NCBI GenBank assembly: GCA_966112355.1
Contig: CBHWCZ010000007.1
Location: forward strand, 22,752 to 86,751
Length of the DNA stretch: 64,000 nucleotides
Direction: 5' to 3'
Source: an uncultured Polaromonas sp.
Lineage (GTDB): Bacteria; Pseudomonadota; Gammaproteobacteria; Burkholderiales; Burkholderiaceae_C
Shown in pieces: positions 7,115 to 24,110 of this stretch (positions are counted from its first letter, which is position 1; every line of letters begins with the position of its first letter). The notes below the pieces were generated by a model that ran no database searches, was not told where the DNA came from, and saw nothing but the letters and a program-made list of their open reading frames with translations. The position numbers and the translations under genes were made by a program.

Positions 7115-7125
7115 CAGACGAAACC

Positions 7126-7683: not shown

Positions 7684-7715
7684 ATGTCAGCTTCTGGCCC
7701 GATAGCGGCTGTCGA
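7684..7715 (+). repeat. Cargo hairpin motif copy H1
   Basis: atgtcagcttctggcccgatagcggctgtcga. Confidence 0.8.
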
Positions 7716-7734
7716 GACAAAGCGGAAATCCAAG

Positions 7735-7766
7735 TGTCTGAACTGGCCGCCATAAAGCAGACATTC
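7735..7766 (+). repeat. Cargo hairpin motif, diverged copy H1b
   Basis: tgtctg-aactggccgccataaag-cagacattc. Confidence 0.55.
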
Positions 7767-8147
7767 ACCAACGCTTGTCGACAACTCTGATGCCGGGCTC
7801 AGATACAACATATGTGGTCGCTCAAGTTTGACGTTTGAACGACTATGGCGAAAAACAGCTTGGGCGTCGCCGAAGCGCGCGAAAGAACCGGTGCCCAGAT
7901 CAATGACGGTTCTCGGTACGCCATCAAACAATTCAAGGTAGCTGTTGCCATCGCTCCCAGTCGTTCCTGAACCACCCAAGCCGAACGCCACCAGTTCCAG
8001 TGATGCAGCGCTTGAAGTTTGAGCCGGATTCCCGGGAGCTAAAGGTGCTGGCGGCCCCGCAATGGCAAGAGTCGCTATCGCAGCGTGACAGCCAGCTTTA
8101 TCAGCGTCTTGCGGGCGGCCCTGATCTCACGCCGTTCTGGCCAACTC

Positions 8148-8489
8148 TCACTTCGTTTGCTCGTTGCCGTAGGTCTTGGCCAGGTAATCCACGATCAGCG
8201 GAATGTCCGCATCGTCCACCGGCGCCTTGAATACAGTTTTCATGCGTTTGACCATGGCCTCCCAATATGGGCGTGCCGCTGTCGGTGGCTGGTACTGCAT
8301 GTATTCGGCCGAATGACAAGCCGCACAGATGGCCTGTGCCTTGGCGTAACCCGGCAGGCTGCTGGGCTTGAGCTGCACACCATCAGGTGGCAGGTCGATG
8401 GACTTGGACCCGGCATGGGCCAGGGCGGAGCCGGCCAGAAGCGCGGCCGTGATCAGGATTTTGTGTGCCAGTAGGTGGGACATGCGCAT
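8148..8489 (-). CDS. sorB: Sulfite dehydrogenase cytochrome c subunit
   Basis: Signal peptide, CAACH heme motif, YWEAMVKRM...FKAP; directly downstream of sorA with RBS. Confidence 0.85.
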   Translation of the reverse strand: MRMSHLLAHKILITAALLAGSALAHAGSKSIDLPPDGVQLKPSSLPGYAKAQAICAACHSAEYMQYQPPTAARPYWEAMVKRMKTVFKAPVDDADIPLIVDYLAKTYGNEQTK

Positions 8490-8494
8490 GCTCC

Positions 8495-9724
8495 TTAAAC
8501 AGCGGTGACTTTGACGGACTCGACCACATTGCGCATGTAGCCGGCGGGCTGCCACAGGGCCTCCATCGGCTGGCTTTGGCCCGAGCGGTTCCAGGCGCGT
8601 ACGCGCAAATCGTGGCTGCCTTTTTCTGGGGTGAAGGCGAAGGTGAACTCGCGAAAGGAGTAGCGACCCATGTCAGCACCCAGCCTGGCGCTGCGCCAAC
8701 TCTGACCACCGTCAGTGGAGTAAGCCACTTCTCGAACACCTTGCCCGCCATCAAAGGCGATGCCACGCACCACGGCCTGCTCGCCCGCCCGCACCCGACC
8801 ACCGTTTTGGACCGAAGTGATGAAGGAGCGCACATTGAATCGCCCAATAGGCCGCGTCGCTGCGGGTGCTGTCCCCGGCTCGACACAGGCACAGTCGTTG
8901 TCTGGAATGCGGTAGGCCGGCTTCATCCAGAAGCCCTCGAAGCTCTGGTCCACCACCTCGATTTCCGACAGGTGCTTGACCCAGTAGGTGCCGTAGTAGC
9001 CGGGCACGATCAACTTGACCGGATAGCCGTTGAGCAGCGGAATGTCTGCACCATTCATCTGGTAGGCGATCATCACTTCGCCATCCATCGCGTGGTTCAC
9101 ATCGATCGACTTGACGAAGTCGCCACCGCCAAACAGGGCCTGATCGAGGCCGTTGAAGGTCACCTCGCGCGCACTGTTCTTGAGCTCGGCGCGGGCCAGC
9201 ACATCCTTGAGCGCGACCCCCACCCAGCGCGCATTGCCCATAGCACCGTTGGAAAGCTGACCACCAGTGACGCGCGGCGAGAAATGGCCGCGGCTGTTGC
9301 CGGAGCACTGATTGACTGCCAGGTACTCGACGGGTTTGAACTGCGTCTTGAGATCGGCCAGAGTCAACTCGTAGGGCTTGCCCGCCGCGTTGCCACCAAT
9401 CTTGATTACATGCTTGTCCGCGTCAATCGTGGTGGGAATGCCGGCATTGTGATAGCGCACGAAGAAGGCGTCATTGGGCGTGATCAGGCCATCGTTGAAC
9501 ACCTCGAACGGCGTTTCCAGTTGTGGCGGCCGCGAGGTCAGCACAATCAGCGGGCGCTTTTCCGGGTAGGCAACCAGATTGCGCTTGCCGTTGACGAAAG
9601 GCAGCTCGACAACGGTGCCTTGCGCGAAAGCACTTCGACCGAAGGCTGCTGCGGCAAGGGCACCAGCGCCTCCGGCGAGAAGCCTGCGGCGCAGCAGGTG
9701 CTTGTTCTTGTGGCCGTCTGTCAT
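8495..9724 (-). CDS. sorA: Molybdopterin sulfite dehydrogenase, Tat-exported
   Basis: RRRLL Tat signal; RPPQLETP, NDAFFVRYH, QCSGNSR, NGYPVKLIVPGYYG. Confidence 0.9.
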   Translation of the reverse strand: MTDGHKNKHLLRRRLLAGGAGALAAAAFGRSAFAQGTVVELPFVNGKRNLVAYPEKRPLIVLTSRPPQLETPFEVFNDGLITPNDAFFVRYHNAGIPTTIDADKHVIKIGGNAAGKPYELTLADLKTQFKPVEYLAVNQCSGNSRGHFSPRVTGGQLSNGAMGNARWVGVALKDVLARAELKNSAREVTFNGLDQALFGGGDFVKSIDVNHAMDGEVMIAYQMNGADIPLLNGYPVKLIVPGYYGTYWVKHLSEIEVVDQSFEGFWMKPAYRIPDNDCACVEPGTAPAATRPIGRFNVRSFITSVQNGGRVRAGEQAVVRGIAFDGGQGVREVAYSTDGGQSWRSARLGADMGRYSFREFTFAFTPEKGSHDLRVRAWNRSGQSQPMEALWQPAGYMRNVVESVKVTAV

Positions 9725-9769
9725 GATTGTCTCCTTGTGGTTGGTGAAGTGAAAGTGGTTGGCAAAACG

Positions 9770-10372
9770 CTAACGGGGCGACTGGGCAGTCGCTACTGGT
9801 GAAAACGTGGCTTGAGCGACCGATAGCGCATGCTTTTTTTGCGCCACCAAGACCAGCGGCTTGCCGTCACGTGACGTCACCACCTGCCAGTACACATTGC
9901 CCCACCAGCCGTGGTCTTCGCTGAGCTTCACCGGCTGGTCAAAGGCGAACACGGTCACCATGCCGCCTTTTTCAAAAAAAGTGGTCAGGTGATAGACCAA
10001 ATGGCCTTCAATATCGCAAGGCCGCATCAGTTGCGGAAAGCCGGGAAGAGTCTGGGATTGGCCCAGCCCCAGATGCTCCAGGATTTTCCGGCCCTCCATG
10101 AAGTTGCCGCGCAGGGTTCGCTCGTAGTACTCGTGCTCAATCGCGCCGCGCACCAGCTCCGGAGGCCGCATCGCGAACACGGCACCCACGCCGGTGCCCA
10201 GCAGCAGCAAACCTGCTATCCCGCGCTGCACAGCAGGCCGTAATAGCCATCGGCTTTGGCGGAACAGACTGGCGGGCGGTTGACCCGGCGCGTAGGCCAG
10301 CGCCAATTCGGCGCGGGCGCGGAGATCAAATTCGTTGTCTTCGAAGGGCTTCAACTCGTTTGTTTCTTTCAT
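9770..10372 (-). CDS. Putative anti-sigma factor (single transmembrane helix)
   Basis: Follows an ECF sigma gene by 2 nt; hydrophobic segment IAGLLLLGTGVGAVFA. Confidence 0.55.
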   Translation of the reverse strand: MKETNELKPFEDNEFDLRARAELALAYAPGQPPASLFRQSRWLLRPAVQRGIAGLLLLGTGVGAVFAMRPPELVRGAIEHEYYERTLRGNFMEGRKILEHLGLGQSQTLPGFPQLMRPCDIEGHLVYHLTTFFEKGGMVTVFAFDQPVKLSEDHGWWGNVYWQVVTSRDGKPLVLVAQKKHALSVAQATFSPVATAQSPR

Positions 10373-10374
10373 GG

Positions 10375-10947
10375 TCAGGAGTCCTGGTTTCTGCGCAGCA
10401 CCGTGACCTTGCTGTCCTCGGCATAGTCCCCAGGCGCCTGCAGGTCTGTGGATCTCACCGGTATCATGGCCGCTTTCAGCGCATCGCGCGCCCGCGCCAA
10501 GCGCGACAGAACCGTGCCGGGTGCTACTTCCAGCGCCTCCGCCATCAGGGCGGTGGGCATGTCGTCAAAGTAATAGAGCACCAGCACTTCGCGGTGTATG
10601 GGCGCGATTTTTTGCAAGGCGCGCACCACATCTAGACGGTCGTCAATGCCGGACTCCGGCGCGGCGCGTGAGGCTGTATCCATAGCCAGCGCGTCGTTGT
10701 CATCCAGACAGAGCAGGCCGGGTGCCATGTGGCGCAGCGCGCTGCGGCGCATGATCTGGAACAGCCAGGCGCGGGCGAGTTCAGGTTCCCGTAGCTGGTT
10801 GCGGTATTTCCACGCGCTGGTGAAACAGTCCTGCACCACATCCTCGGCCACGGCGCGTGAGCCACTCATGGCCCAGGCGCTGCGCATCAGGAAGCGGTAG
10901 TGGTCACGCACCCATTGGTTGTAGCGGGACTCGGCAGTTTCGAACAT
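10375..10947 (-). CDS. ECF RNA polymerase sigma factor
   Basis: AEDVVQDCF, RAWLFQI, GTVLSRLARAR. Confidence 0.92.
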   Translation of the reverse strand: MFETAESRYNQWVRDHYRFLMRSAWAMSGSRAVAEDVVQDCFTSAWKYRNQLREPELARAWLFQIMRRSALRHMAPGLLCLDDNDALAMDTASRAAPESGIDDRLDVVRALQKIAPIHREVLVLYYFDDMPTALMAEALEVAPGTVLSRLARARDALKAAMIPVRSTDLQAPGDYAEDSKVTVLRRNQDS

Positions 10948-11032
10948 GCGTATAAGAGCAGTAGTTCAGGGCGCTCATTCCATTCCCCTGATAAATAGTC
11001 ACAGGGGTTTACCCGCAGACCCAGAGGCGTGG

Positions 11033-11407
11033 TCAGCCACCGCCCCGGACCGCCCCCAGTGCCGGATAACCACCTGGCTCTGGGTTGGGCCCGTGTCGTA
11101 AGACCGCCATGCGCCCGCGCATCGCAGCGATTTCCACGGTCTGGCTGGCAATGATGTCCTCGGCAATCTGACGCACCAGCGGGTCGCGTCCGTGTATCAG
11201 CACCAGCCGCGCCATGTCCACCGCCCCCTCGTGGTGGGGAATCATCATCGCCAGAAAGTCTGCATCCGGGTTGCCGGTGTAGCCCGGCCCGTGCATGTCC
11301 TGCATCATGCGGGCCATGCCGGTGTCCATGTCGACTTCAAAGCGACTGGCCGGAGGCGGGTGACCTCCCGCCAACCCTTGTGCGTGGTGGTTACTGTGGT
11401 CGGTCAT
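11033..11407 (-). CDS. DUF305 / CopM-like metal-binding protein
   Basis: DADFLAMMIPHHEGAVDMA ... IIASQTVEI; ATGA overlap with the upstream gene. Confidence 0.85.
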   Translation of the reverse strand: MTDHSNHHAQGLAGGHPPPASRFEVDMDTGMARMMQDMHGPGYTGNPDADFLAMMIPHHEGAVDMARLVLIHGRDPLVRQIAEDIIASQTVEIAAMRGRMAVLRHGPNPEPGGYPALGAVRGGG

Positions 11408-12819
11408 GCAGTCTGCCCATTGCTGCCGGGCCGGACATAGACCAGGTTGATGCTCTTCTTGTTGCGCAATTCGCCTGACGGCAGTTTGAGTGCGCCCAGC
11501 GGAATCTGGGTGATGAGTTTGGGCTCCAGCGGTGATGACACATCGAATGCGGAGCACACCACCTGCCCTGCGTTGGGGGTTCCGGGCAGTTCGTCCTGTT
11601 CATGCGCCACGTAGAGCAGGTTGTTGGCCGGGTTGGTCCAGATTCCATGGGCCTCGCGGCCACCGGTGTAGACCATGCCCACGACCTTTTGCTGAGCCAC
11701 GGGGACCGAGCGGTCGATGATGGCCAGGCGGCTGGAGGCAGCGCCGTTCGGGCCACCGTCGTCGACGCGCGCCAGACTCATGTAGGTCACCTGGCCACGG
11801 GCATTGTCCACAAACTCCAGGTGGTTGGGGCGTGCCAGTTCACCCAGGGCAATCGTGCTCAACACAGCACCCGGGTCTTTGACCGACACGATCGAGACCG
11901 CATCAGCCAGCTTGTGCGACAGCCACATCTGGTTGCCGTCCGGCGAGAGTTTTTGGAACGGCGTGAAGGCAGGTTTGTCCTGACTGCTCAGGTCCACAAG
12001 GCGCAAGCGTTTCGGGCGTGAATGGCCTTTCGCGTCGGCGTTGACCTGCAGGATCTCGAGCTGTGCGGTTTTCTGGCTGATGACAAAGGCCAGCGCGCCG
12101 TCTTTGGAAAACCAGACCTGGGCCGGGCCGTTGAGCGTGGGGATGTACGCGCGAACAGCTAGCGCGGGGATGCCGGTCGGACTGGTCAGCTGCTGGGTGG
12201 CCTGCGCCACGTCGATGATGGCGATGCGGTCCTCACCGCGGAGGGTGACCCATAACTCCTTGCCGTTACGGGTAAAGGTCGGCTCATGCGGCTCACGTCC
12301 CAGCAAGATGCCACTGGACAACCGCTCCGGGTTGGTGGTGGCGCCAGCCTGTGGATTGGCCACATTGCCCACCACGCGCCGGTTCACCGCGTCAATCAGG
12401 TAAATGTTGCTGCTGCCGCGGCCCGAGGTGGCCAGCAGTGTGCCGTCCGGGTTGGGCACTGCGCCGTGGGCGTCAATGCAGCCGTGGTACAGGGGCTTGT
12501 GAATCATGGCGGCATGGGTGGGCATAACGCCGCCGGTGACAAACCGAAACGGCGGCCGTGCTTCTTCGTCAAAGCTGGTGAGGTTGATGGTGGTGTCCAC
12601 CGTATTGCTGGCAGGATTGATCACGCTGATGGTGTTTGAATCCTCGTTGGTGATGAAGACACGGTCCACCGGTGCGATGTCGGGTCCAGCGGATATTCCC
12701 ATCACTGGTGCAGGTTGCGCTGCAGCTGGTGCCACCGCCCAAGGCGCGGCCGCGACGGCGGGTAGCGCCGCAGCGGCTTTCAGGAAGTCGCGACGCGAGT
12801 CATTGAGAAATTCAGTCAT
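11404..12819 (-). CDS. Tat-exported YncE/YVTN-like beta-propeller protein
   Basis: SRRDFLK Tat motif; VFITNEDSNTISVI; repeated xHE/xHG blades. Confidence 0.8.
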   Translation of the reverse strand: MTEFLNDSRRDFLKAAAALPAVAAAPWAVAPAAAQPAPVMGISAGPDIAPVDRVFITNEDSNTISVINPASNTVDTTINLTSFDEEARPPFRFVTGGVMPTHAAMIHKPLYHGCIDAHGAVPNPDGTLLATSGRGSSNIYLIDAVNRRVVGNVANPQAGATTNPERLSSGILLGREPHEPTFTRNGKELWVTLRGEDRIAIIDVAQATQQLTSPTGIPALAVRAYIPTLNGPAQVWFSKDGALAFVISQKTAQLEILQVNADAKGHSRPKRLRLVDLSSQDKPAFTPFQKLSPDGNQMWLSHKLADAVSIVSVKDPGAVLSTIALGELARPNHLEFVDNARGQVTYMSLARVDDGGPNGAASSRLAIIDRSVPVAQQKVVGMVYTGGREAHGIWTNPANNLLYVAHEQDELPGTPNAGQVVCSAFDVSSPLEPKLITQIPLGALKLPSGELRNKKSINLVYVRPGSNGQTA

Positions 12820-12963
12820 GAGTTCTTTCGAAAGTTGAAAAATGGAGTTGCAAAAGTGCTGGCAAAGTACGCTCTGGCGTAAACCGGCTGCAAGGTCAGC
12901 CGCCCTCGTGATTCGCGCCAATGATGGTCTGATTAATTCGATGAATTGGGCGCGGTCACGCAG

Positions 12964-13815
12964 TCAGCGCGGCGTGTCGAGCTGTCGGTAGACCTCGCCG
13001 GACACCCGCGCCAGTTCGGCCTTGTCGGCGTCGGCCGAAATCGCATAGCCGAAGGGACCATTGACCCAGTAGAAAACATTGACGCCGCCTTCCCGGGCAA
13101 AGCGGAAGGCTGTTTCCTGATTCTTCTGGCCTGGCGCTGTAGCGCTCACACCACTGACCTCATTTGAGACATACAGCGTCAGCTTGGCGCCGGCGTTGTC
13201 GTGGTACATGAACTGCGCGACCGGCCCGTTGTCGCCCGGCAACAACCGGCCACCGTCGAGGGCGTAGCCCAGCGTCTGCAGATGGGGCGGTTTCATGGTC
13301 GCACCCATGCGCTTGGACAGCCAGGCCACCAGTTGGTCTTCATGGTCGGCGCTGACTTCAACGGGCCGCCGTACGTCAGGGCTGTAGACCGCATGGGCAA
13401 TCGCCGCGCGCTGCGCAAACCCTGTGGCCGACGCGACGGCGATGGCGCTGGGCGTGCGCTGGGCCACCATGCCAGCACCTGGCTCGGAGCCCAGACCGCC
13501 GCGCAGGCCCCAGCCTGCGGCGCCACTGACCACGGCAATCGCGATGCCAGCGGCCATGCGCTGCAGATACCAGGGCGTGCGTGGCCTGGCAGCCTGCCGG
13601 ATCCGCAGCGGCAGCGATTCTTCGAGCACTGGATTGAAGAGTGCGCGCAGTTCGCGCTTTTGGGTCAGATAGCTTTCGACGCGTTGCGCCTCTTCGGGGC
13701 GACGGGCCAGATACGCTTCGATCTCGCGCTGACGCTCCGGCGTGAGTTGACGATCCACGTAAGCGTGCAATTCAGCTTCGGTGACGGGTGTTGGGGGAGG
13801 TGTGACTGGGTTCAT
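12964..13815 (-). CDS. Transmembrane anti-sigma factor (RsiW-like)
   Basis: ELHAYVDRQL, AHAVYSPDVRRPVEV, LVAWLSKR, GGRLLP. Confidence 0.88.
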   Translation of the reverse strand: MNPVTPPPTPVTEAELHAYVDRQLTPERQREIEAYLARRPEEAQRVESYLTQKRELRALFNPVLEESLPLRIRQAARPRTPWYLQRMAAGIAIAVVSGAAGWGLRGGLGSEPGAGMVAQRTPSAIAVASATGFAQRAAIAHAVYSPDVRRPVEVSADHEDQLVAWLSKRMGATMKPPHLQTLGYALDGGRLLPGDNGPVAQFMYHDNAGAKLTLYVSNEVSGVSATAPGQKNQETAFRFAREGGVNVFYWVNGPFGYAISADADKAELARVSGEVYRQLDTPR

Positions 13816-13825
13816 GACGGTCTGT

Positions 13826-14350
13826 TCATTTAACGACTTTGAGTCGAACGGGATCATGTTGGCCTTCCATGAGAGAACGCAAGCGCTCACGACCACGCGA
13901 GAGGCGCGACATGACCGAGCCGATGGGGATACCCAGGGCAGCGGCCACTTCGGCGTAACTCATGTCTTCCAGCGCGATCAGCAAAATGATCTCCCTTTGC
14001 TCTACCGGCAGCTTCTCCAGAGCGGCCTGCAAATCCATGACGGCAAGGCTCTCACCCTGGGTCGCTGCGACCGGCAATTCGGGGGTGTCGTCATCGAGGA
14101 CCACGGTGTGCAGCTTGGGCCTGCGGACACCGTCCACGTGCAGGTTATGCATCATGCCGAACAACCACGCCCGCATATCCGAGACACCTCGCCACAGCGC
14201 CGATTTGGCCAGTGCCCGCTCCAGCGTGTCTTGCACCAGGTCATCGGCGTCCTCGCGGTTGCCCACCAGCGCCCGCGCGTAACGGCGCAGGCGCGGCACC
14301 CAGGTCAGCAGGTGGTCGTCACCGTTCTCGTCGTAGAGGTCGTTTTGCAA
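13826..14350 (-). CDS. ECF RNA polymerase sigma factor
   Basis: LRRYARAL, ADDLVQDTLERA, GSVMSRLSRGR. Confidence 0.92.
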   Translation of the reverse strand: MQNDLYDENGDDHLLTWVPRLRRYARALVGNREDADDLVQDTLERALAKSALWRGVSDMRAWLFGMMHNLHVDGVRRPKLHTVVLDDDTPELPVAATQGESLAVMDLQAALEKLPVEQREIILLIALEDMSYAEVAAALGIPIGSVMSRLSRGRERLRSLMEGQHDPVRLKVVK

Positions 14351-14390
14351 ACTGCCGCCTGGTTATTTTGCCGGTCTGAACGTCAACCCA

Positions 14391-14786: not shown

Positions 14787-14810
14787 TGAGTGTGTGTGGC
14801 GGGTTGGCGA

Positions 14811-16532: not shown

Positions 16533-16659
16533 GGTGTTCTCCATCAGGTTCGGTTCGTCAGGGTCGAATGTAGAGTTCTGTAATCTATCCGTCCAACAGC
16601 TTGTTTGAGTAACATATAGCTGTTTAATCAATATACAAAGCACGCAGGGGAACTCGACC

Positions 16660-17586
16660 ATGGATGTACTGCGCCTGACATTGCGTCAACTGCAAATTTT
16701 TGTGGCGGTGGCCCAAACCGGCAGCACGACGGCAGCCAGCACGCAAATTGCCCTGTCGCAGTCGGCGACCAGCGCGGCCGTCAAGGAGCTGGAGCGTCTG
16801 CTGTCGCTCCACCTGTTCGACAGGGCAGGTAAACGCCTGCTGCTCAACGACAACGGACGAGCTCTGCTGCCGCGGGCGCAGGCCCTGCTGGACGGCGCGG
16901 CCGGGATCGAGCAGATGTCCCGTGATGGCATGGCGCAGTCCCAGTCGCTGCGGATTGGCGCTAGCACCACGATTGGTAACTACGTGTTGCCCCGGCTTCT
17001 CAGGCAGTTTCTGCGTGGACGGCACCAAGACATCGCCACCAGTTGGCATTCAAGGATTGCCATAAACAACACTGAAGCGATATGCGACGCAGTGGACCGG
17101 TTCGAACTCGATGTGGGGCTGATAGAAGGCCCCTGCCACCATACGTCACTCATAGTCACCCCATGGATGCAGGACGAGCTGGTGGTGGTGGGGCACCCGA
17201 CTCTTGCGAATAAATCGAAGCAAGGGCGGGTGTCACTGAAAACATTACGCGATTGGGTATGGCTGCTGCGCGAGGCGGGCTCGGGTACCCGAGAGGCGAC
17301 AGACCAATTGCTACTGCCTCATCTCACTTCCTACCGCCACAGCATCGAACTAGGAAGCTCAGAGGCGATTAAGCACTCGGCTGCAGCAGGACTTGGAGCG
17401 GCATGCCTTTCGCGATGGGTCGTAAGCGACATGCTAGAGGCAAAACTCTTGAAGCGTGTCAATACCACGCTGCCGAAAATGACCCGCCAGTGTTATACGG
17501 TGATTCATCGAGGCAAACAACATACGCCAGCGTTACTGGACTTTATCGATCAAGCAACATCGCTTACAAAATCTAGAGGGAAATAG
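16660..17586 (+). CDS. yeiE: LysR regulator, YeiE-like
   Basis: LTLRQLQIF HTH; GASTTIGNY, LREAGSGTR; divergent from yeiH. Confidence 0.8.
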   Translation: MDVLRLTLRQLQIFVAVAQTGSTTAASTQIALSQSATSAAVKELERLLSLHLFDRAGKRLLLNDNGRALLPRAQALLDGAAGIEQMSRDGMAQSQSLRIGASTTIGNYVLPRLLRQFLRGRHQDIATSWHSRIAINNTEAICDAVDRFELDVGLIEGPCHHTSLIVTPWMQDELVVVGHPTLANKSKQGRVSLKTLRDWVWLLREAGSGTREATDQLLLPHLTSYRHSIELGSSEAIKHSAAAGLGAACLSRWVVSDMLEAKLLKRVNTTLPKMTRQCYTVIHRGKQHTPALLDFIDQATSLTKSRGK

Positions 17587-17614
17587 AAATGTTCTGCGAA
17601 AAGTGAAGCGGGGG

Positions 17615-17840
17615 ATGCTTCGTATCCTTGATTCGTGGATCGAGGGACTTCGACTCGGTCCAGTCGCCTATAGAACTCACACCATTCGCAAAACTAAAGC
17701 ATCCTTGATTTACTGTCGAACGAAGAATATTCGACTTGTCCAATCGCTTCTGGGTCATACCAAACTCTAAAACACCGGGCGGTGCCTCGGCATTGAGGTA
17801 GCAGAAGCCTTGTAGCTTTCATAGTAGACAGAGATTTGCC
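17615..17840 (+). pseudogene. Small tyrosine recombinase, C-terminal remnant
   Basis: YRTHTIRKTKASLIYCRTKNIRLVQSLLGHTKL*NTGRCLGIEVAEAL* (HxxR and LGH boxes); stops at 17768 and 17813; catalytic Tyr position reads Cys. Confidence 0.85.
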
Positions 17841-17901
17841 AGATTGAACTTGGCTGCTGGTTGAATGATTTTTGACTTCCAGTTACAGGTCGTTCCGGTG
17901 C

Positions 17902-17928
17902 GTCCGCTTCTGGCCCGGATGCGGAAAC
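17902..17928 (+). repeat. Cargo hairpin motif copy H2
   Basis: gtccgcttctggcccggatgcggaaac, preceded by ggtcgttc. Confidence 0.8.
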
Positions 17929-18069
17929 TTTGTGCTCCGTCACCAGCATGGTGAAGAAGCCCTTCACCCCGGGCGCGCCGATTTTGGGAGGGTGCTGCAT
18001 TTGCCACCAGGTCGATAAAGCCTGTAGAGTCCAAATGCGCAAAGACGCGCCAACATTCAGGAGACTGCC

Positions 18070-18444
18070 ATGTTCAAAAGCGATACCTGCTGCACCTTGG
18101 TGCCCTACTTCGAAGTCGAGGAATCACAACTCGCCGCCTTCAAAGCACTCGGGCCTAAATTTGTCGAGAAGACACGCACGGAAGCGGGATGCGTGCACTA
18201 CGCGTTCTCTTACAGCGGCCACACAGCCCATTGCCGAGAAGGTTATGTCAACGCGGAAGCAGTTCTCGCACATCTCCAAAATGTCGGCGAGCTGCTTGGT
18301 GAGGCGCTCAAGATAGCCAAGATCACTCGACTCGAGGTCCATGCACCAGCAGCAGAGATCGAGAAACTCAAGGGTCCTATGGAGTCATTGAATCCGCAGT
18401 TCTTTGCCCTCGATCCAGGCATCCGACGCAGCAGCGAAGACTAA
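18070..18444 (+). CDS. ABM-domain putative monooxygenase
   Basis: GGAG RBS; TRTEAGCVHYAF ... REGY..AEAVLAH. Confidence 0.8.
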   Translation: MFKSDTCCTLVPYFEVEESQLAAFKALGPKFVEKTRTEAGCVHYAFSYSGHTAHCREGYVNAEAVLAHLQNVGELLGEALKIAKITRLEVHAPAAEIEKLKGPMESLNPQFFALDPGIRRSSED

Positions 18445-18470
18445 CCCATCAGTCCATCGGATCGCCCACG
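18441..18470 (+). other. Left half of an attC-like site (truncated)
   Basis: ctaacccatcagtcca is 15/16 identical to 6062-6077 of attC1 and contains the ORF stop; no matching GTTRRRY follows. Confidence 0.6.
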
Positions 18471-18506
18471 CCAAATCGAAAGGCTCACAAGCGGTCATTT
18501 AACTGC

Positions 18507-18540
18507 GGCCGCTTCTGGCCCGATTACGGCTGCCGAGACA
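18507..18540 (+). repeat. Cargo hairpin motif copy H3
   Basis: ggccgcttctggcccgattacggctgccgagaca; preceded by aagcggtcatt. Confidence 0.8.
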
Positions 18541-18708
18541 TTGCGGACGTTATCCGCTTCAGTAATTTCACATTTTCATCGTCGGTTCCCTTGATTTGGG
18601 CGATGAGGCGGTCCCTCCCGACGGCGATTTCAGCGGCTACAAGCGCACAGTAAACTGAGACGGCCGAATTGCGGCTAATTACAAAAGACAATGAGAAGGA
18701 GACAAGCC

Positions 18709-20094
18709 ATGAAGCGACGATGTTTTGTTGCAGCTGCCGCGCTGCTGCTGGGCGCATGTTCAACCCCGTCGGGGCCGCCCGCAACTCAGTCGGGCCTAGC
18801 CTCGGCCTCGGAGCGGTGGATCGCGACTTGGGCGGCCCCTGCGGTCGCCCGACTCGACCAACCAACGCAGACTCTTTCAGCGGCGGCGCTCGCCTATCCA
18901 TGGGCGCGTGATGTGCCGGCCGCCGTCGATGCGGCGGGAATTGGCTCGCAGCCGCTGCCGGTGGGGGGTATGTCTCCACTCCACTTCAAAGACCAGACCC
19001 TGCGACAAATCGCTCGCGTTTCGGTGGGGGGTACACGCGTGCGTGTCGTGTTATCCAACAGCCTCGGTACCTCGCCACTGCGCATCGGGGCTGCGCAAGT
19101 GGCGCTTAGGGATACAGGGGCCAGCATCGTCGCGGGCTCCAACCGAGTATTAACCTTCGGCGGTATTTCCCAGCCAGTGGTGCCGGCTGGCGCTTTGATG
19201 GTCAGCGATCCGGTGGATCTCGCAGTGAAGGACTTTGGCGACCTGGCGATTGATCTGCACCTGCCAGACGACACGTCCACATGGAAATCTCCGGTAACGG
19301 TTCACCCTGCCTCCTGGCAAGTTAACTATGTATCGTCACAGGGAAACTACATTGGCGCGACGCGCTTCCCAGTGATGGCCACGACGGCCTATCGCCGCAG
19401 CGACGGCCTTGCCTCAGCTTCATCGTTCTTCCTTGCCCGCGTCGAGGTTGTCGCAGCGCCGCCAACAGGCGTGCTGGTAGCGTTTGGCGACTCCATTACC
19501 GATGGCACGCAGTCCGGAATCGATGCGAATCGCCGTTGGCCAGATCTGCTAAATACTCGTCTTCATACAGCTGGCACGAGGCTAAGCGTGGTGAACGGTG
19601 GGATCGGAGGCGGCCGCGTGCTGGAGGATGGCGTCGGACCGAATGCGCTGGCCCGCTTCGACCGGGACGTTCTCGCCCAGCCGGGTGTCACTCATGTCAC
19701 GGTGCTCGAAGGGGTCAACGATATTCGGGCAGGTGGCACCAAACCATCACCGACCGTTGCCGACCTTATTGCCGGGCATCGACAACTGATTGACCGCGCA
19801 CACGCCCGCGGCTTGCGCGTTTTCGGTGGAACGGTACTTCCCTTTGAAGGTGACTCAAACTGGACCCCTGAGGGTGAGGCTAAACGCCAAGCGCTGAACG
19901 ACTGGATTCGTAAGAGTGGCGCCTACGACGCCGTGCTGGACTTCGATCGCGTGGTGCTCGACCCCGCGCGGCCGACTCGTATGCAAGCCGAGTTTGACTC
20001 TGGTGACCACCTGCATCCCGCGCCGGCTGGCTACCGGGCTATGGCCGACAGCATTGATCTGAACCTGTTCCGTCCGGGAGTGCTGGCAAAGTAG
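18709..20094 (+). CDS. SGNH/GDSL hydrolase lipoprotein
   Basis: Lipobox LLGAC; FGDSITDG, NGGIGG, LEGVND, DHLHP. Confidence 0.9.
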   Translation: MKRRCFVAAAALLLGACSTPSGPPATQSGLASASERWIATWAAPAVARLDQPTQTLSAAALAYPWARDVPAAVDAAGIGSQPLPVGGMSPLHFKDQTLRQIARVSVGGTRVRVVLSNSLGTSPLRIGAAQVALRDTGASIVAGSNRVLTFGGISQPVVPAGALMVSDPVDLAVKDFGDLAIDLHLPDDTSTWKSPVTVHPASWQVNYVSSQGNYIGATRFPVMATTAYRRSDGLASASSFFLARVEVVAAPPTGVLVAFGDSITDGTQSGIDANRRWPDLLNTRLHTAGTRLSVVNGGIGGGRVLEDGVGPNALARFDRDVLAQPGVTHVTVLEGVNDIRAGGTKPSPTVADLIAGHRQLIDRAHARGLRVFGGTVLPFEGDSNWTPEGEAKRQALNDWIRKSGAYDAVLDFDRVVLDPARPTRMQAEFDSGDHLHPAPAGYRAMADSIDLNLFRPGVLAK

Positions 20095-20158
20095 TCCAAT
20101 TAATGGGCACGTAGACTTTCGCGAGTCTCGTGCCCAACCCGTTACCGGTCATTCGCGT

Positions 20159-20188
20159 ATGTCGGCTTCTGGCTACGAAAGCGGACAC
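20159..20188 (+). repeat. Cargo hairpin motif copy H4
   Basis: atgtcggcttctggctacgaaagcggacac, preceded by ggtcattcg. Confidence 0.8.
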
Positions 20189-20334
20189 GGGTCAGCGTCA
20201 ATGATTTGATCAGTTTGCGCCAGAAACTAGCCGGCAAGATCAATGGATTAGATGCGCTCTAGACCGGGGCGGGCCTGATCGGCAGTCTTTTGTTTAAAGG
20301 CAATTTCTTGAATACTAGCAGAGGGGTGTAGGCC

Positions 20335-23025
20335 ATGGGGACTGTCGATAGCCAGATTCGTAGCGCTGCAGAGGCGATCTCACGCAATATCCAGATGCTG
20401 GGTGAGCAGCGTGGATTGCTGTCGCAGAACGTTCTTGCTCAAATTCGGAACCTGATTGAAGGAACGCTAGTTCGCCTCCACTCTCGGTCCGCTACCAACG
20501 AGTTCCATTACGATGCGGTCGAGCCAGCATTGGCCTTTGTGAAGGGCATTGCAAAGTTCAGCTACTTGGCGAAATTTCACAAGCTAGTACAGAAGAGCGC
20601 GTCGCACTACACCCTTGACGAGGACGCCTCCGAACGCTTGATGCTCAAGTATTACGAATACCTGCATCGCATGCGGCGCTCACTCCATGACGATTGCGGG
20701 ATGGCCGTACTGGAAAACCTCGAAGATTTCCCAGTAAACCTCGACCCGTCTCTGCGCGAATATCACAAGGCGATCGCGCAGCGAGTCGACAATTCACGTC
20801 TGGCAGGCGATAACGCTTGGAACGCAAGGTACTATATTCACAAGACGCGGCCGTTTTTTGTTGGTGGCCGCATCTACTACGAGGTCACCTGCTACCTTGC
20901 GGTGAACAAGGTCAGCAAATTTGATCGAATCATTGCTTTCACTGACATCGATATCACCGACAACTATGCGGCGATGCTCGTATTGCATCGCGACTCAATT
21001 CAGGTGCTTGATCGTTCTATGCCGATCACGATCATACAGGCGTGGTCAGTGTCAGTGCGGCCATGCGAGTTCGAAAACTTTGCGCGACTTCTTGGCGAGA
21101 CCATATCCGTTCGAACGACCTCCCCTGAGTACCTGAATCTCATGCGCTGGCTGACTGTTAGCGGTGGCAGCTTGGTGGACTTGGTGGAGATGAGCGACGA
21201 CGCATATGCGGCCATGTACCAAGCGCATGCTACAGGCGCTGCGAAGCTGCAGATATTTCCACTGTTGGATAAGTCCCGTCGGATCATCCGCTCCGGGGCC
21301 ACTGGTCAGAACGTGTTGCGCTACGTCTTGCTTCGTTTGTATAACCAGATCATCAAGCAGCTCCACTCTTGGGATGCATGCAACCGCCTCTCAAACCTCA
21401 AACTCACCTGGGGTTGCATTCCTTTCGAAGAGATGCCCTTTTGCACTTCGCTTCCGGGTCATAACCCGCGATTCTGGGATTTGATCGAAAGCTTGGATGC
21501 CACGGGTCGCACACACGAGTTGCTTGCACGCCGTGTCCGTACAAATGTGGAAAGCCACGGGATTCTTTACACCGCAGTCGCCGACCTTAAGCAGTTCGTA
21601 GAGATCCCTGATCTGATCGCCACCTACAACGGGCGCCTTTACTTCAAACACACGCATCGTCACCTCGTGCTTGAGATGGATCATGTGTTCATTCGCGGCT
21701 ATGAGGACCAGACTGTTGAGATCGTCAAAAAGTTGCAGCAATCTGCAGCGTCCAGAATTGATGGGTATACGCAGGCAGTCGAGCGGTGGCTGGGCGATGC
21801 CTCGCGGGGCATTGATGATTTGATCAAACAGGACGCATTGAAGAAGTTGTTCAGTCAATCGCGCGTCGCTCTGATTTACGGGGCCGCAGGTACGGGAAAA
21901 TCCACGATGGTGAACCACATTGCGGACTATTTCAACGACAAGCAGAAACTGTTTCTCGCCCACACTCACCCAGCTGTCGACAATCTCAAACGGAGAGTGA
22001 GCGCGCAGAACTCTGAATTTCGAACGATCAGTAGCCAGACTCGTAGGAAGTCAGTCGGGACAGACTATGACCTTGTAGTCATCGACGAATGCAGCACCGT
22101 CTCGAACTCTGACATGCTGGCGGTCCTTGCCAGCACGTCGTTCAAACTCCTGGTGCTCGTTGGCGACGTCTATCAGATCCAGGCTATTCAGTTTGGCAAC
22201 TGGTTCGGGATCATTCGCTCTTTCATCCCGACTGAATCAGTGTTCGAGCTCACGACCCCTTACAGGGCAAAGAGCGCGTCTCTCGTGTCGTTCTGGGACA
22301 AGGTGAGGCGCATAGAGGACGACATTGCCGAATCAATGGTCAAGAGCCACTACACCACTGTGCTGGACAGGACGCTTTTTGAACCCCTGCGAAATGACGA
22401 AATAATCTTGTGCCTGAATTACGATGGTCTTTATGGCATCAACAACGTCAATCGTTTCTTGCAGAGCGGCAACGACGGGGACGCCACGATATGGCGTACG
22501 CAGACCTACAAGGTCGGTGACCCTGTGCTCTTCAACGAGATCGAGCGATTCCGTCCGGTCATCTATAACAATCTGAAGGGCCGAATCGTCGAGATTCAAG
22601 CGGCAGCAGGGCAGATTCACTTCGATGTTGAATTGGATCGGCCGTTATCAGAGTTCGATGTGGATGGGGACGAGCTTCAGTGGATAGGTGGATCTACCGT
22701 TCGCTTCGCCGTCTACGAGAAGGACGCGAGCGATGAAGATGACGATTCGATCAATACGACCGTGCCTTTTCAAGTCGCGTATGCGGTGTCAATTCACAAG
22801 GCTCAGGGACTTGAGTACGACTCGGTGAAGATTGTTATTACCGATGCGAACGAGGATGCAGTCACTCACAGCATCTTTTACACGGCTATTACGCGAGCGC
22901 GCGAGAGACTGCGAATCTTTTGGACACCCGAGACCCAACAGACGGTGCTCGCTCGTCTTGCGAGGCGCGAAAGCAGAAAAGATGTCCAGCTCCTTGTGAA
23001 ACGAACAGGGCTGACGCCGGTGTGA
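20335..23025 (+). CDS. SF1B (RecD-like) DNA helicase with long N-terminal region
   Basis: GAAGTGKST, IDECS, VGDVYQI, SIHKAQGLEY, YTAITRAR. Confidence 0.88.
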   Translation: MGTVDSQIRSAAEAISRNIQMLGEQRGLLSQNVLAQIRNLIEGTLVRLHSRSATNEFHYDAVEPALAFVKGIAKFSYLAKFHKLVQKSASHYTLDEDASERLMLKYYEYLHRMRRSLHDDCGMAVLENLEDFPVNLDPSLREYHKAIAQRVDNSRLAGDNAWNARYYIHKTRPFFVGGRIYYEVTCYLAVNKVSKFDRIIAFTDIDITDNYAAMLVLHRDSIQVLDRSMPITIIQAWSVSVRPCEFENFARLLGETISVRTTSPEYLNLMRWLTVSGGSLVDLVEMSDDAYAAMYQAHATGAAKLQIFPLLDKSRRIIRSGATGQNVLRYVLLRLYNQIIKQLHSWDACNRLSNLKLTWGCIPFEEMPFCTSLPGHNPRFWDLIESLDATGRTHELLARRVRTNVESHGILYTAVADLKQFVEIPDLIATYNGRLYFKHTHRHLVLEMDHVFIRGYEDQTVEIVKKLQQSAASRIDGYTQAVERWLGDASRGIDDLIKQDALKKLFSQSRVALIYGAAGTGKSTMVNHIADYFNDKQKLFLAHTHPAVDNLKRRVSAQNSEFRTISSQTRRKSVGTDYDLVVIDECSTVSNSDMLAVLASTSFKLLVLVGDVYQIQAIQFGNWFGIIRSFIPTESVFELTTPYRAKSASLVSFWDKVRRIEDDIAESMVKSHYTTVLDRTLFEPLRNDEIILCLNYDGLYGINNVNRFLQSGNDGDATIWRTQTYKVGDPVLFNEIERFRPVIYNNLKGRIVEIQAAAGQIHFDVELDRPLSEFDVDGDELQWIGGSTVRFAVYEKDASDEDDDSINTTVPFQVAYAVSIHKAQGLEYDSVKIVITDANEDAVTHSIFYTAITRARERLRIFWTPETQQTVLARLARRESRKDVQLLVKRTGLTPV

Positions 23026-23079
23026 ACAAAAGGCAGAGGAGTCCAGCTCAGATTTTCCTCAGAGTATCTCGAAGAGGTG

Positions 23080-23106
23080 GTCTGCTTTTGGCCCGATAGC
23101 GGACAC
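23080..23106 (+). repeat. Cargo hairpin motif copy H5
   Basis: gtctgcttttggcccgatagcggacac. Confidence 0.8.
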
Positions 23107-23180
23107 TCTCTGGTTGGCATTTAATAACCGTTGTGCAGCAGTAGCGGCCACCTGGCGAGTCGGGTCGCTTCTGTAGGAAC

Positions 23181-23438
23181 TCAGCGCCGTTTTATCTGCC
23201 GGTTTAATTGATCCAAACTACCAAGTCCCAGCTTCTCCATCGCATCGTCACCGCTTATCTCACCTGCCTCATACAAATCCAGTATCTCCAGGCGTTCATA
23301 GTCCGGGCTGCCAAATTCTCTTCCTACAGGTGCTACGTCGAGCCATGCTTGCTCTTCAGCGGACCACGGCCAGACTTTTCGGTTGAACTGGCCATGACGC
23401 AGCTGGCTAATCCGACGCTTATTCTTTCGGATGCTCAT
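23181..23438 (-). CDS. Small hypothetical protein
   Basis: 85-aa ORF with upstream gagagagcc; plausible composition (WLDVAPVGREFGSPDY). Confidence 0.55.
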   Translation of the reverse strand: MSIRKNKRRISQLRHGQFNRKVWPWSAEEQAWLDVAPVGREFGSPDYERLEILDLYEAGEISGDDAMEKLGLGSLDQLNRQIKRR

Positions 23439-23638
23439 CAGGCTCTCTCTCTTTGCTAGGGGACATATTCGCAGTCAGCTGAGATTTTTACTGACATCCC
23501 TTGGTCCTTGACCAGTTCGACCGCTCAGCGTTGAAGTCAAGACTGAGTTTCCTTCTTGTAACCATACACCGCCTCCAGTTTCATCGACCACCTCAACAAA
23601 GTGTCTATGAAACCGGCATCAACGGAATTTAATCCAAG

Positions 23639-23929
23639 TCAGAGCATCCTCACTCTATCGGCGACCGTAGGAATACTTTCGTATGGCAAGGTGTTGTCTT
23701 CCAGCAGTGCGCGCGCAGCTTCGCGCGGGACCAGCATCACCACCTGCTCGTTTGCGTGAGCGAGGGCCAGTAACGTAACGACAGTGAAATTTTGGTGCCC
23801 ACTGAGCGCTCTGCTTACACTTTGACGAGTCAGACCTGTTCGCGCAGCAAGATCCACATCGCTAGCGATCTTTCGACCGCGGCGAAGACTCTCGGCCAAG
23901 CTTTTTAGGGTATTCATTTGTGAATGCAA
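23639..23929 (-). CDS. XRE-like HTH protein
   Basis: DLAARTGLTRQSVSRALSG...TVVTLLALA. Confidence 0.7.
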   Translation of the reverse strand: MHSQMNTLKSLAESLRRGRKIASDVDLAARTGLTRQSVSRALSGHQNFTVVTLLALAHANEQVVMLVPREAARALLEDNTLPYESIPTVADRVRML

Positions 23930-24077
23930 GTAATGACTCTACTTCGGTGAAAAATAATGTTAATTATATTTAACATTTCTGCGATTTGTTAAATATATTT
24001 GACAAACCAAATGGGCGAGAAAACGTGCTGACCAGCACAGAGATCGCTGCCGAGGAGCCGACACCAGTCACTTACCA

Positions 24078-24110
24078 ATGTCCAGTTCTGGCCCGAAGGC
24101 CGTCGACACA
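24078..24110 (+). repeat. Cargo hairpin motif copy H6
   Basis: atgtccagttctggcccgaaggccgtcgacaca. Confidence 0.7.

What the first reader, a model, noticed from the sequence alone, without database searches (positions are those of the whole stretch)
7684..24110. Same-orientation short hairpin sites delimit the cargo modules: a possible second, non-integron cassette system
Seen: a motif of about GTCCGCT-TCTGGCCCGAT-AGCGGAC recurs at 7684, 17902, 18507, 20159, 23080 and 24078, with a diverged copy at 7735. GCTTCTGGCCCG is exact in three copies, and several are preceded by GGTCRTTC. All are intergenic, all face the same way, and they bracket self-contained units: sulfite/ECF block, ABM gene, SGNH gene, helicase, two small genes. 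Half copies sit where genes are broken: the intI truncation (5599-5615), after the half attC (18489) and after the methyltransferase fragment (24696). I noticed no full copy in the backbone. Inference: these are recombination sites or scars of a system that captures DNA segments and stacks them as cassettes. I know of no named system for it.
Basis: partly seen in the sequence, partly recalled or inferred. Interest (0 to 1): 0.85.

Follow-up and report, generated by a model that had tools for sequence, protein, structure and literature searches.

The report
Cassette array of a small tyrosine recombinase
The repeated motif is real and most likely marks the recombination sites of an apparently undescribed gene-cassette system, separate from integrons, that is run by a small 207-residue tyrosine recombinase whose dead remnant lies inside this array.

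Summary
The motif is real. Seven same-strand copies lie at 5519-24130, all intergenic, and none elsewhere in the 64 kb. The composite pattern GGTCRTTY-N10-GCTTCTGGC matches 4 times against 0.05 expected.

The conserved part is not a hairpin. Stem pairing across 17 family sites equals the shuffled control. What is conserved is an asymmetric left half, (GTTACC)GGTCATTCGC-N8-GnCnGCTT-CTGGCCC, followed by a variable right half.

In other metagenomes the same modules (ABM, SGNH, small genes) sit in other contexts, and the helicase module is absent. Left and right halves reassort 0-3 nt after CTGGC(CC).

Window 17609-17839, just upstream of copy 17888, is a pseudogene of a 207-aa tyrosine recombinase ("int207"). 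In six independent contig lineages the intact gene is followed 40-50 nt after its stop by the same site. Identical int207 genes on six contigs diverge exactly after CTGGCCC, and all four upstream/downstream flank combinations occur.

int207 reaches no curated family cut-off and is not IntI. The sites lack attC boxes. About 1.3 Gb of contigs from the source sample hold only three contigs with a copy at least 80% like the 7672 copy, so the motif is not REP-like.

Best reading: a non-integron cassette platform, frozen here. No experiment supports it yet, and I found no description in the literature I could search.

The parts
5519..5612 (+). Degenerate long-form site: left half with GTTGAACCC at 5540-5548 in place of the conserved run, then right-half type B1 and an inverted second arm. 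Its 3' end abuts the truncated intI.
   Evidence: (repeat family D5: 80% identity over 59 nt to 7705-7763). This copy is not recovered by the leave-one-out profile.
5549..7700 (+). Unit K1. Contains the intI remnant (38 codons, minus strand, about 5729 to 5616), attI, and three classic integron cassettes with attC sites at 6061-6115, 7039-7113 and 7566-7630.
   Evidence: sequence. (intI remnant matches the integron-integrase model, E 7.8e-6). (AbiTii).
7659..7766 (+). Long-form site: GTTACC at 7659, GGTCGTTCGC at 7672, conserved run GCTTCTGGCCC at 7690-7700, right half B1 at 7701-7733, inverted second arm at 7734-7766.
7701..17916 (+). Unit K2 (10.2 kb). Contains a molybdopterin oxidoreductase, two ECF sigma factor/anti-sigma pairs, a TAT-signal lactonase-like protein, a YeiH-type membrane protein, a LysR regulator, and then the int207 pseudogene with its site.
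17609..17839 (+). Pseudogene of the 207-aa tyrosine recombinase int207. Only residues 132-207 remain, with four in-frame stops.
   Evidence: 72% nt identity to L096. (translation). (alignment with five intact loci). (tblastn: 68% identity, E 1.6e-23).
17882..17926 (+). Site proximal to int207: GTTACA, GGTCGTTC, conserved run at 17906-17916. Junction after 17916.
   Evidence: Junctions in runs X3 and X6 at 17916/17917.
17917..18521 (+). Unit K3: ABM-fold gene (18070-18444) with the left half of an integron attC (18438-18465), followed by its site.
   Evidence: (repeat family D7).
18493..18547 (+). Site with right half B1. Conserved run at 18511-18521.
   Evidence: (repeat family D6). Breakpoints at 18511, 18524 and 18546 and at 18525/18531.
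18522..20173 (+). Unit K4: SGNH/GDSL hydrolase (18691-20094).
   Evidence: Found in other contexts in X3-X6 and L099. Found without the left half-site in L085 and L097.
20141..20199 (+). Site with right half B2 (TACGAAAGCGGACACGGGTCAGCGTCA). Conserved run at 20165-20173.
   Evidence: Breakpoints at 20144 and 20186 and at 20173.
20174..23094 (+). Unit K5: one gene, an 896-aa SF1 helicase that matches the PADLOC candidate defence protein PDC-S53 end to end.
   Evidence: 1327 bits, residues 1-892 against model positions 1-895 of 900. Zero depth at 20192-23083 in X3-X6.
23080..23106 (+). Truncated site: no GGTCRTTC box, conserved run GCTTTTGGCCC at 23084-23094.
23095..24094 (+). Unit K6: two small minus-strand genes, 23181-23438 and the HTH gene 23639-23929.
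   Evidence: Occurs in other contexts in X4-X6.
24066..24130 (+). Last site: diverged left half (AGTCACTT...AGTTCTGGCCC, run at 24084-24094) plus a B1-like right half.
   Evidence: (repeat family D2).

Best explanation
The motif copies are the recombination sites of a cassette system that is distinct from the integron. Its recombinase is a small tyrosine recombinase of 207 aa, called int207 here. It has a catalytic domain only and an intact R-K-H-R-H-Y set of catalytic residues.

Each mobile unit ends with a conserved left half-site, (GTTACC)-GGTCATTCGC-N8-GnCnGCTT-CTGGCCC. Strand exchange takes place in or at the right edge of CTGGCCC. As a result, everything to the right of that point belongs to the next unit. 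The right side varies: type B1 is GAtAGCGGCTGTCGAsGACAAAGCGG, type B2 is GAAAGCGG..GGTCA, and some junctions have unrelated sequence.

Units of 0.6 to 10 kb are therefore stacked head to tail in one orientation. The int207 gene, together with its own site, is itself one such unit of about 830 bp.

In this window the array holds at least six units, from 5549 to 24094. It sits in the cargo of a GInt-like island and has swallowed a piece of an integron. Its recombinase is a pseudogene, so the array is probably frozen unless int207 is supplied in trans.

Shown: the site family, its rarity and co-orientation, the breakpoint positions, and the linkage of the site to int207.

Inferred: that int207 catalyses the exchange, that units pass through circular intermediates, and the exact cleavage positions.
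For: Statistics and co-orientation of the copies.

Module presence and absence, with junctions at the site, in independent runs. L099, whose SGNH protein is 99% identical and whose DNA is 98.8% identical, ends ...GTCGGCTTCTGGCCC|TATTGTG.

The int207 pseudogene lies directly upstream of site 17888 and is colinear with intact int207+site loci.

Intact int207 is followed by the site in L096, L100-107, L110, L112, L115-120 and L121.

L100 has four same-orientation sites that bracket a GreA-like gene, int207 and a two-gene module, with defence-type genes next to the array.

An identical int207 protein (P0203) occurs on six contigs. They share sequence up to ...CAACTGGCCC and then split into two downstream sequences. 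There are also two upstream contexts, and all four combinations occur.

L100 and L112 differ before CTGGCCC and are near-identical from AAATTGACATTTTGG onward.

The catalytic residues are invariant in 15 family members.
Against: No experiment exists, and no circular junction has been seen. The runs were available only as contigs, which drop rare forms.

Metagenome assemblies can make chimeras at an 830-bp repeat. The four-combination pattern could therefore overstate reassortment.

Breakpoints are also seen at the left edge of the site (20144) and at the right edges of B1/B2 (18546, 20186). I read these as the ends of conserved site sequence, not as crossovers.

In L115-L120 the two upstream flanks diverge just before the int promoter, not right after a CTGGCCC-like run.

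int207 lacks a core-binding domain, so it is unclear how it would read a site of 40-75 bp.

Homologues at 65-73% identity (Telluria, Acidovorax, Caballeronia, P. aeruginosa pPUV-7) have no site, or a site in the inverted orientation.

The structure model was too poor to use (pLDDT 42.6).
Confidence: 0.65

Rival explanations
1. Only the int207 unit is mobile. It behaves as an IS-like element of about 830 bp driven by a tyrosine recombinase, with a preferred target. The other copies are solo ends or scars left by repeated insertion and decay. The modules between them are ordinary flanking DNA and are not mobilised.
For: The int unit has sharp borders in many contexts. Many family members are truncated or fused ORFs. 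L110 carries extra int fragments and a site next to int-flank sequence but without int.
Against: SGNH, ABM and the small-gene units carry no int remnant apart from GTTACC. They nevertheless move between contexts together with their own left half-site. The helicase unit is missing precisely between two sites. Sites L100:3706 and L100:10257 have no adjacent int sequence.
Confidence: 0.15
2. The motif is a small non-autonomous repeat, a MITE or REPIN-like palindromic element. It landed in intergenic DNA and now only seeds illegitimate or short-homology rearrangements.
For: The long forms (5519-5612, 7659-7766) contain two inverted arms and fold as one long hairpin (-19.5 kcal/mol, z -1.6). Perfect hairpins GTCCGCTTCTGGCCCGAAAGCGGAC occur singly in Massilia, Pseudoduganella, Peristeroidobacter and other genera.
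Against: The motif is very rare in the source sample and absent from the backbone. No target duplications and no RAYT or transposase are present. All seven copies face the same way. Junctions cluster within 3 nt of one position. The copies share at most 12-14 nt of exact identity, which is too little for homologous exchange.
Confidence: 0.08
3. The copies are unusual or decayed attC sites, and the whole stretch is one integron cassette array handled by IntI.
For: An integron remnant and classic attC sites lie in the same array. The ABM unit carries an attC left half that stops where site 18493 begins.
Against: There are no RYYYAAC...GTTRRRY boxes. Stem pairing is no better than chance. Units reach 10 kb and contain genes on both strands. 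The sites are tied to int207, which scores 23 bits against an integron-integrase cut-off of 265.
Confidence: 0.03
4. The motif is a cis-regulatory or RNA element, such as a terminator, insulator or small RNA, that happens to sit between operons.
For: The position is intergenic, and some copies have a stem-loop.
Against: There is no Rfam match at either the gathering or the E-value threshold. Fold z-scores are weak. There is no covariation and no T-run. This reading does not explain the breakpoints or the linkage to int207.
Confidence: 0.04

Closest known systems
Integrons (IntI, attI, attC cassettes)
   Same: A tyrosine recombinase plus a head-to-tail, one-orientation array of units. Each unit carries its recombination site at its 3' end. 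The crossover position is fixed, so the right side of each site belongs to the next unit. Units also occur 'trapped' at non-canonical junctions. The cargo includes defence genes.
   Different: The recombinase is not IntI: it has no IntI-specific insertion and no N-terminal domain, and it scores 23 bits against a cut-off of 265. The sites have no R''/R' boxes and no conserved folded structure. The recombinase gene points the same way as the array and is itself bounded by sites. Units reach 10 kb and hold several genes on both strands.
pdif modules of Acinetobacter plasmids (XerC/XerD-dependent)
   Same: Discrete gene modules bounded by short recombination sites and found in many contexts.
   Different: pdif sites are 28-bp 11-6-11 dif mimics in alternating orientation and are handled by the host Xer proteins. 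The sites here are asymmetric, 40-75 bp, all in one orientation, and come with a dedicated small recombinase.
Shufflon (Rci recombinase and its sfx sites)
   Same: An asymmetric tyrosine-recombinase site in which only one arm plus the central spacer is conserved.
   Different: Rci is 384 aa and only inverts segments inside one gene. Here the sites are direct repeats between whole gene units.
Site-specific tandem accretion (CIMEs, composite SCC islands)
   Same: Arrays of elements separated by repeated att sites. Most elements lack their own recombinase and depend on one supplied in cis or in trans.
   Different: Those elements target one chromosomal attB and use large integrases or serine recombinases. 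Here units can be a single 0.6-kb gene, and the array travels inside other mobile elements.
REP/REPIN elements with RAYT
   Same: Short palindromic extragenic repeats. The long forms here are inverted doublets.
   Different: REPINs are abundant and dispersed. This motif is rare, clustered, co-oriented and has no RAYT.

Membership tests
Integron | Recombinase is an IntI-type integrase that reaches the curated integron-integrase models | tested here: not met
   int207 scores 23.2 bits (cut-off 265) and 21.9 bits (cut-off 435). A real intI remnant does exist at about 5616-5729, but it belongs to the classic attC cassettes.
Integron | attC site: RYYYAAC ... GTTRRRY boxes with a conserved imperfect hairpin | tested here: not met
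   The motif copies have no such boxes. 47.9% of stem cells are paired against 48.6% in shuffles. Classic attC sites are present separately at 6061-6115, 7039-7113 and 7566-7630.
Integron | Units reassort at one fixed crossover position in the site | tested here: met
   Junctions fall 0-3 nt after CTGGC(CC) at 17916/17917, 18524, 7702 and 20173, and in L115-L120 and L100/L112. This is the same behaviour as an integron, but it does not make the system a member of the family.
Tyrosine recombinase superfamily (PF00589), for int207 | Catalytic domain with the R-K-H-R-H-Y residues | tested here: met
   PF00589 is recorded for all listed family members. R58, K86, H155, R158, H181 and Y190 are invariant in 15 sequences. 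The best solved-structure relative is XerD, matching the C-terminal part only (E 1e-4).
REP/REPIN-RAYT | Many copies dispersed in extragenic DNA of the genome, with a linked RAYT gene | tested here: not met
   No copy in the backbone of the window. Three contigs in about 1.3 Gb of contigs from the source sample. No HUH-type gene among the genes scanned in the window.
pdif / Xer modules | 28-bp XerC-spacer-XerD sites in alternating orientation | tested here: not met
   All sites are in one orientation and have no 11-6-11 dif-like layout.
MITE | Terminal inverted repeats plus target-site duplication, and empty versus filled sites | tested here: inconclusive
   The long forms have inverted arms. 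No duplication is visible in the sequence. No empty-site pair was found in the loci fetched.
IS200/IS605 or IS91 ends | Linked HUH transposase (TnpA) or TnpB | tested here: not met
   None was found among the genes scanned in the window or in the precomputed Pfam labels of the int207 loci.
Any Rfam RNA family | Match to a curated covariance model | tested here: not met
   No match at the gathering threshold over the whole window. Nothing on the motif at E<=5.
GInt (the island that carries the array, not the motif itself) | Three consecutive integrase genes at one end, cargo, a short AT-rich far end, insertion into a gene | tested here: met
   Three large ORFs sit at one end: 35537-36796 (Phage_integrase), 33488-35536 (no hit) and 31274-33475 (weak Phage_integrase). 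The B12 radical-SAM gene is split into 3401-4429 and 36876-37520. An AT-rich end lies at about 4490-4680. The definition is from PMC5385486. Homology to GinA/B/C was not tested directly.

The most novel reading that the evidence does not exclude
int207 and its asymmetric sites form a second, independently evolved gene-capture platform that is widespread in soil and freshwater Proteobacteria. The int207 family has more than 8000 proteins at E<=1e-10, more than 1000 clusters at 50% identity with E<=1e-30, and homologues on 449 plasmid records. In this reading the platform stocks and reshuffles single genes and small operons, defence genes among them, and can ride inside other mobile elements such as GInts and integrons.
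Probability: 0.45. Interest if true: 0.85.

Novelty: new variant of a known kind. Interest (0 to 1): 0.78.

Why it matters
Integrons are the textbook case, and in practice the only well-studied one, of a dedicated platform that captures promoter-less or small gene units by site-specific recombination. A second platform with an unrelated site and a minimal recombinase made of a catalytic domain alone would matter in four ways:
- It would show that this strategy evolved more than once.
- It would explain part of the mosaic structure of defence islands and island cargo in environmental Proteobacteria.
- It would give annotators a new marker (int207 plus the site profile) for delimiting mobile units.
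- It would offer a very small recombinase with a roughly 40-bp asymmetric site as a possible tool.

It also raises a mechanistic question. It is unclear how a tyrosine recombinase without a core-binding domain reads such a site.

Tried and rejected
- Rfam, at gathering and permissive thresholds: nothing.
- blastn of the long form against plasmids: no match.
- Whole-collection pattern scans. In genome contigs, 64 single hits, mostly chance matches inside genes, about 15 lone intergenic hairpins, and none with the 5' box. In metagenome contigs, 18 hits, of which only L072 looks related.
- attC reading: no R''/R' boxes, rejected.
- IS200/IS605 and IS91 readings (TTAC or GTTC next to a subterminal hairpin): dropped because no HUH gene is present.
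- P1 palindrome (GGTCATTCG·CGAATGACC) as the crossover point: rejected, because similarity between contexts changes at CTGGCCC and not at the centre of the palindrome.
- Circular-permutation argument from L099. The B2 right half lies upstream of SGNH there and downstream of SGNH in the window. This is suggestive only, since B2 is a shared right-half type.
- Structure prediction of int207: pLDDT 42.6, so no fold search was run.
- Plasmid homologues at about 70% identity: no such sites, so the site family is specific to the int207 subfamily of the fetched loci (88-99.5% identical to P0135; plasmid results).
- Five literature searches: no description found.


Full report
**Setting.** The window has a backbone of about 66% GC and an island at about 4490-36960 with 52-63% GC. 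The island splits a B12-binding radical-SAM gene. The C-terminal part is at 3401-4429 and the N-terminal part at 36876-37520, both on the minus strand. One end of the island carries three large consecutive ORFs at 35537-36796, 33488-35536 and 31274-33475; two of them have Phage_integrase hits, one of these only weak. The other end is AT-rich. This is the tripartite layout described for GInts (PMC5385486).

Inside the cargo is an integron remnant. It has 38 codons of intI on the minus strand, whose residues 16-38 match the integron-integrase model at E 7.8e-6. To its right are three cassettes with classic attC sites at 6061-6115, 7039-7113 and 7566-7630.

A profile of the seven copies finds nothing else in the 64 kb at E<1. 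Six of the seven are recovered when left out of the profile.

Two copies, 5519-5612 and 7659-7766, are long forms of about 100 nt. They share 80% identity over 59 nt and contain a second, inverted arm. The claimed half copy at 24696 is not supported.

**It is not a hairpin family.** Fold z-scores are weak. On an alignment of 17 family sites from the window and eight other loci, the proposed 7-bp stem is paired in 47.9% of cells. Shuffled controls give 48.6%.

What is conserved is an asymmetric left half: an optional GTTACC, then GGTCATTCGC, eight variable bases, GnCnGCTT and CTGGCCC. The right half falls into types. B1 is GAtAGCGGCTGTCGAsGACAAAGCGG..TCCAG, B2 is GAAAGCGG..GGTCA.G.TC.A, and some junctions have unrelated sequence.

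**It is not a dispersed repeat and not a known RNA.** Rfam gives nothing. I laid all contigs of the source sample (about 1.3 Gb of contigs) on the 7672 copy at 80% likeness or more. Only three contigs matched: the copy itself, the 18493 copy, and one other contig of 6567 nt with two same-orientation copies 6069 nt apart.

Pattern scans of 185,579 species genomes and of JGI metagenomes returned almost only chance hits, plus lone intergenic hairpins without the 5' box.

**Do module borders coincide with the motif?** Public runs X3-X6 hold parts of this stretch in other contexts.
- The helicase unit, 20192-23083, has zero depth in all four runs. Its neighbours (ABM, SGNH, small genes) are present.
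- Contigs leave the window sequence at 17916 (X3), 17917 (X6), 18524 (X6) and 7702 (X6).
- L099, which carries the SGNH unit at 98.8% DNA identity, leaves it at 20173...GTCGGCTTCTGGCCC|TATTGTG.
- All of these junctions lie 0-3 nt after CTGGC(CC).
- One X6 contig joins 17917 directly to 23627 through a B1-type right half.
- Other alignment ends, at 18511, 18546, 20144 and 20186, sit at the edges of conserved site sequence, where a different copy of the site takes over.
- The loose end before 20144 in X5 reads ...GACGGAAATTTGA, which is the last codons of a recombinase gene.

More distant SGNH relatives (84% nt identity; L085, L096, L097) share 18525/18531-20122/20136. That is the unit with its B1 start but without a canonical left half-site upstream. 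This is as expected for a unit trapped at a non-canonical junction.

**The recombinase.** L096 and L097 have integrase fragments next to SGNH. Window 17621-17838 is 72% identical in DNA to the L096 fragment. Read in frame, window 17609-17839 gives ...YRTHTIRKTKASLIYCRTKNIRLVQSLLGHTKL*..LGIEVAEAL*LS**TEI. This is the last 76 residues of a tyrosine recombinase with four stops (tblastn: 68% identity, E 1.6e-23).

Details of the family:
- The full-length family is 207 aa with PF00589 only. The 120 listed hits are 87-98% identical to the 125-aa L096 fragment used as query, and more than 8000 hits reach E<=1e-10.
- There are 1011 clusters at 50% identity with E<=1e-30, many of them truncated or fused.
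- Homologues at 73% identity or less occur on 449 plasmid records.
- R58, K86, H155, R158, H181 and Y190 are invariant.
- No curated NCBIfam model is reached. The scores are Xer-type 57-64 bits, integron integrase 23 bits (cut-off 265) and Fim-type invertase 19.5 bits (cut-off 222). Only the catalytic-domain part of those models aligns.
- The nearest solved structure is XerD at E 1e-4.

**Linkage of recombinase and site.** In every close int207 locus fetched, the gene is followed 40-50 nt after its stop by ..TGGCTGCCAGTTACC-GGTCATTCGC-N8-...TGGCCC. These loci are L096, L100-L107, L110, L112/L113, L115-L120 and L121/L122. The window pseudogene plus site 17888 is colinear with five of them.

L100 carries four same-orientation sites at 3706, 4411, 5162 and 10257. 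They bracket a GreA-like gene, int207 and a two-gene module, and defence-type genes (DUF2326, MC6/MC8, CTD12) lie next to the array. L112 sits in a Pycsar/CBASS-like island.

The L100 and L112 sequences differ before CTGGCCC and are near-identical from AAATTGACATTTTGG onward.

The clearest case is the identical int207 protein P0203 on six JGI contigs. All share ...AGTCACTCGCGAATACCCGCAACTGGCCC. They then split into ATCACAGTCAAAG (L115, L117, L120) or GAAGCGGGTCAAGC (L116, L118, L119). Upstream they split just before the int promoter region into two contexts. All four upstream/downstream combinations occur.

**Interpretation.** The simplest account is a site-specific cassette system. Units end in the conserved left half-site. 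Exchange occurs in or at the edge of CTGGCCC. Units stack in one orientation, and int207 with its own site is itself a unit.

The window then reads as follows:
- K1, 5549-7700: the captured integron piece.
- K2, 7701-17916: a 10.2-kb metabolic and regulatory block ending in the dead int207 and its site.
- K3, 17917-18521: the ABM gene, still carrying half an attC.
- K4, 18522-20173: the SGNH hydrolase.
- K5, 20174-23094: one gene that matches the PADLOC candidate defence protein PDC-S53 end to end.
- K6, 23095-24094: two small genes.

Because the only int207 copy here is a pseudogene, and several sites are degenerate (5519, 23080, 24066), the array is probably frozen.

**What remains inferred.** It is inferred that int207 is the catalyst, that circles are intermediates, and where the strands are cut.

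Caveats:
- Metagenome assemblers can build chimeras across an 830-bp repeat.
- The public runs were available only as contigs, so rare excision products could not be seen.
- The int207 structure model was unusable (pLDDT 42.6).
- More distant homologues lack the site (Acidovorax, Caballeronia) or carry a related sequence in the opposite orientation (P. aeruginosa pPUV-7; Telluria).

**Rivals.**
- Only the int unit moves and the rest are scars. This is contradicted by int-less units that travel with their own half-site.
- A MITE or REPIN-like repeat. This is contradicted by rarity, co-orientation and clustered junctions.
- A variant attC handled by IntI. There are no boxes and no structure, and the linked recombinase is the wrong one.
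- An RNA or terminator element. There is no support for this.

**Novelty.** Five full-text searches found no description. The system works like an integron but fails the tests for integron membership. I file it as a new variant of a known kind, namely recombinase-driven cassette platforms. There is a substantial chance that it deserves to be called a new platform in its own right.

Noticed in passing
window 4490-36960: The whole low-GC island looks like a GInt. Three consecutive large ORFs sit at the right end, two of them with Phage_integrase hits (one weak). There is cargo and an AT-rich left end. The island is inserted inside a B12-binding radical-SAM gene, whose halves are at 3401-4429 and 36876-37520.
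   Followed up: partly
window 28680-30317: The island carries its own full-length B12-binding radical-SAM/DUF4080 gene (545 aa) of the same architecture as the gene it disrupts. It may be a replacement copy of the target gene.
   Followed up: no
window 5616-7630: Integron remnant: intI reduced to 38 codons, then three cassettes with classic attC sites. The cassettes are a 70-aa ORF, an AbiTii abortive-infection protein (6123-7043) and a 145-aa ORF with no family hit.
   Followed up: partly
window 18438-18492: The ABM gene is followed by the left half of an integron attC (GACTAACCCATCAGTCC...). It stops exactly where the R' box should be and where the new site begins (..CACAAGCG|GTCATTT). An integron cassette seems to have been taken over by the second system.
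   Followed up: partly
window 24812-28452: A TrlF-family AAA-like ATPase (1004 aa, 636 bits; C-terminal end like the anti-phage protein Ppl) lies next to a DUF2026 gene. This is probably another defence module in the island cargo.
   Followed up: no
window 24560-24720: Fragment of an N6-adenine methyltransferase (..VVVGNPPFVGSKK..). It ends in GGTCGCTCAAACGTCAAAT, which resembles the 3' end of the local attC sites (CTCAAACGTTAGAC). A similar 12-mer, GTGGTCGCTCAA, occurs at about 7816.
   Followed up: no
L020, L022, L028, L036, L048, L050, L057, L059 (genome-contig hits): Lone intergenic palindromes, mostly perfect, of the form (AT)GTCCGCTTCTGGCCCGAAAGCGGAC(AT) occur in Peristeroidobacter, Massilia, Telluria, Pseudomonas profundi, Pseudoduganella, Pseudolabrys and others. 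In Telluria aromaticivorans (L028) one lies about 60 nt after a 65%-identical int207 homologue, but in the inverted orientation.
   Followed up: partly
L109 (P. aeruginosa plasmid pPUV-7, NZ_MT732185.1): A 70%-identical int207 homologue lies a few kb from an efflux outer-membrane channel gene (tbtM) and from a run of site-specific integrase genes that resembles a GInt end. This echoes the int207-inside-GInt arrangement of the window.
   Followed up: no
(int207 family): Many family members are 125-127-aa ORFs that start at residue 82-83 (MQQKT..). Others are fusions or fragments. This suggests frequent 5' truncation of the recombinase gene, as seen in L096 and in the window.
   Followed up: no
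window 61737-61829: ARAGORN reports a tRNA-Gln (anticodon ttg) that is 93 nt long, well above the usual length of about 75 nt.
   Followed up: no
run X1, contig of 6567 nt: The source sample holds another contig with two same-orientation copies of the site 6069 nt apart, at the same depth as the window sequence. This may be a second array or unit in the same genome.
   Followed up: no
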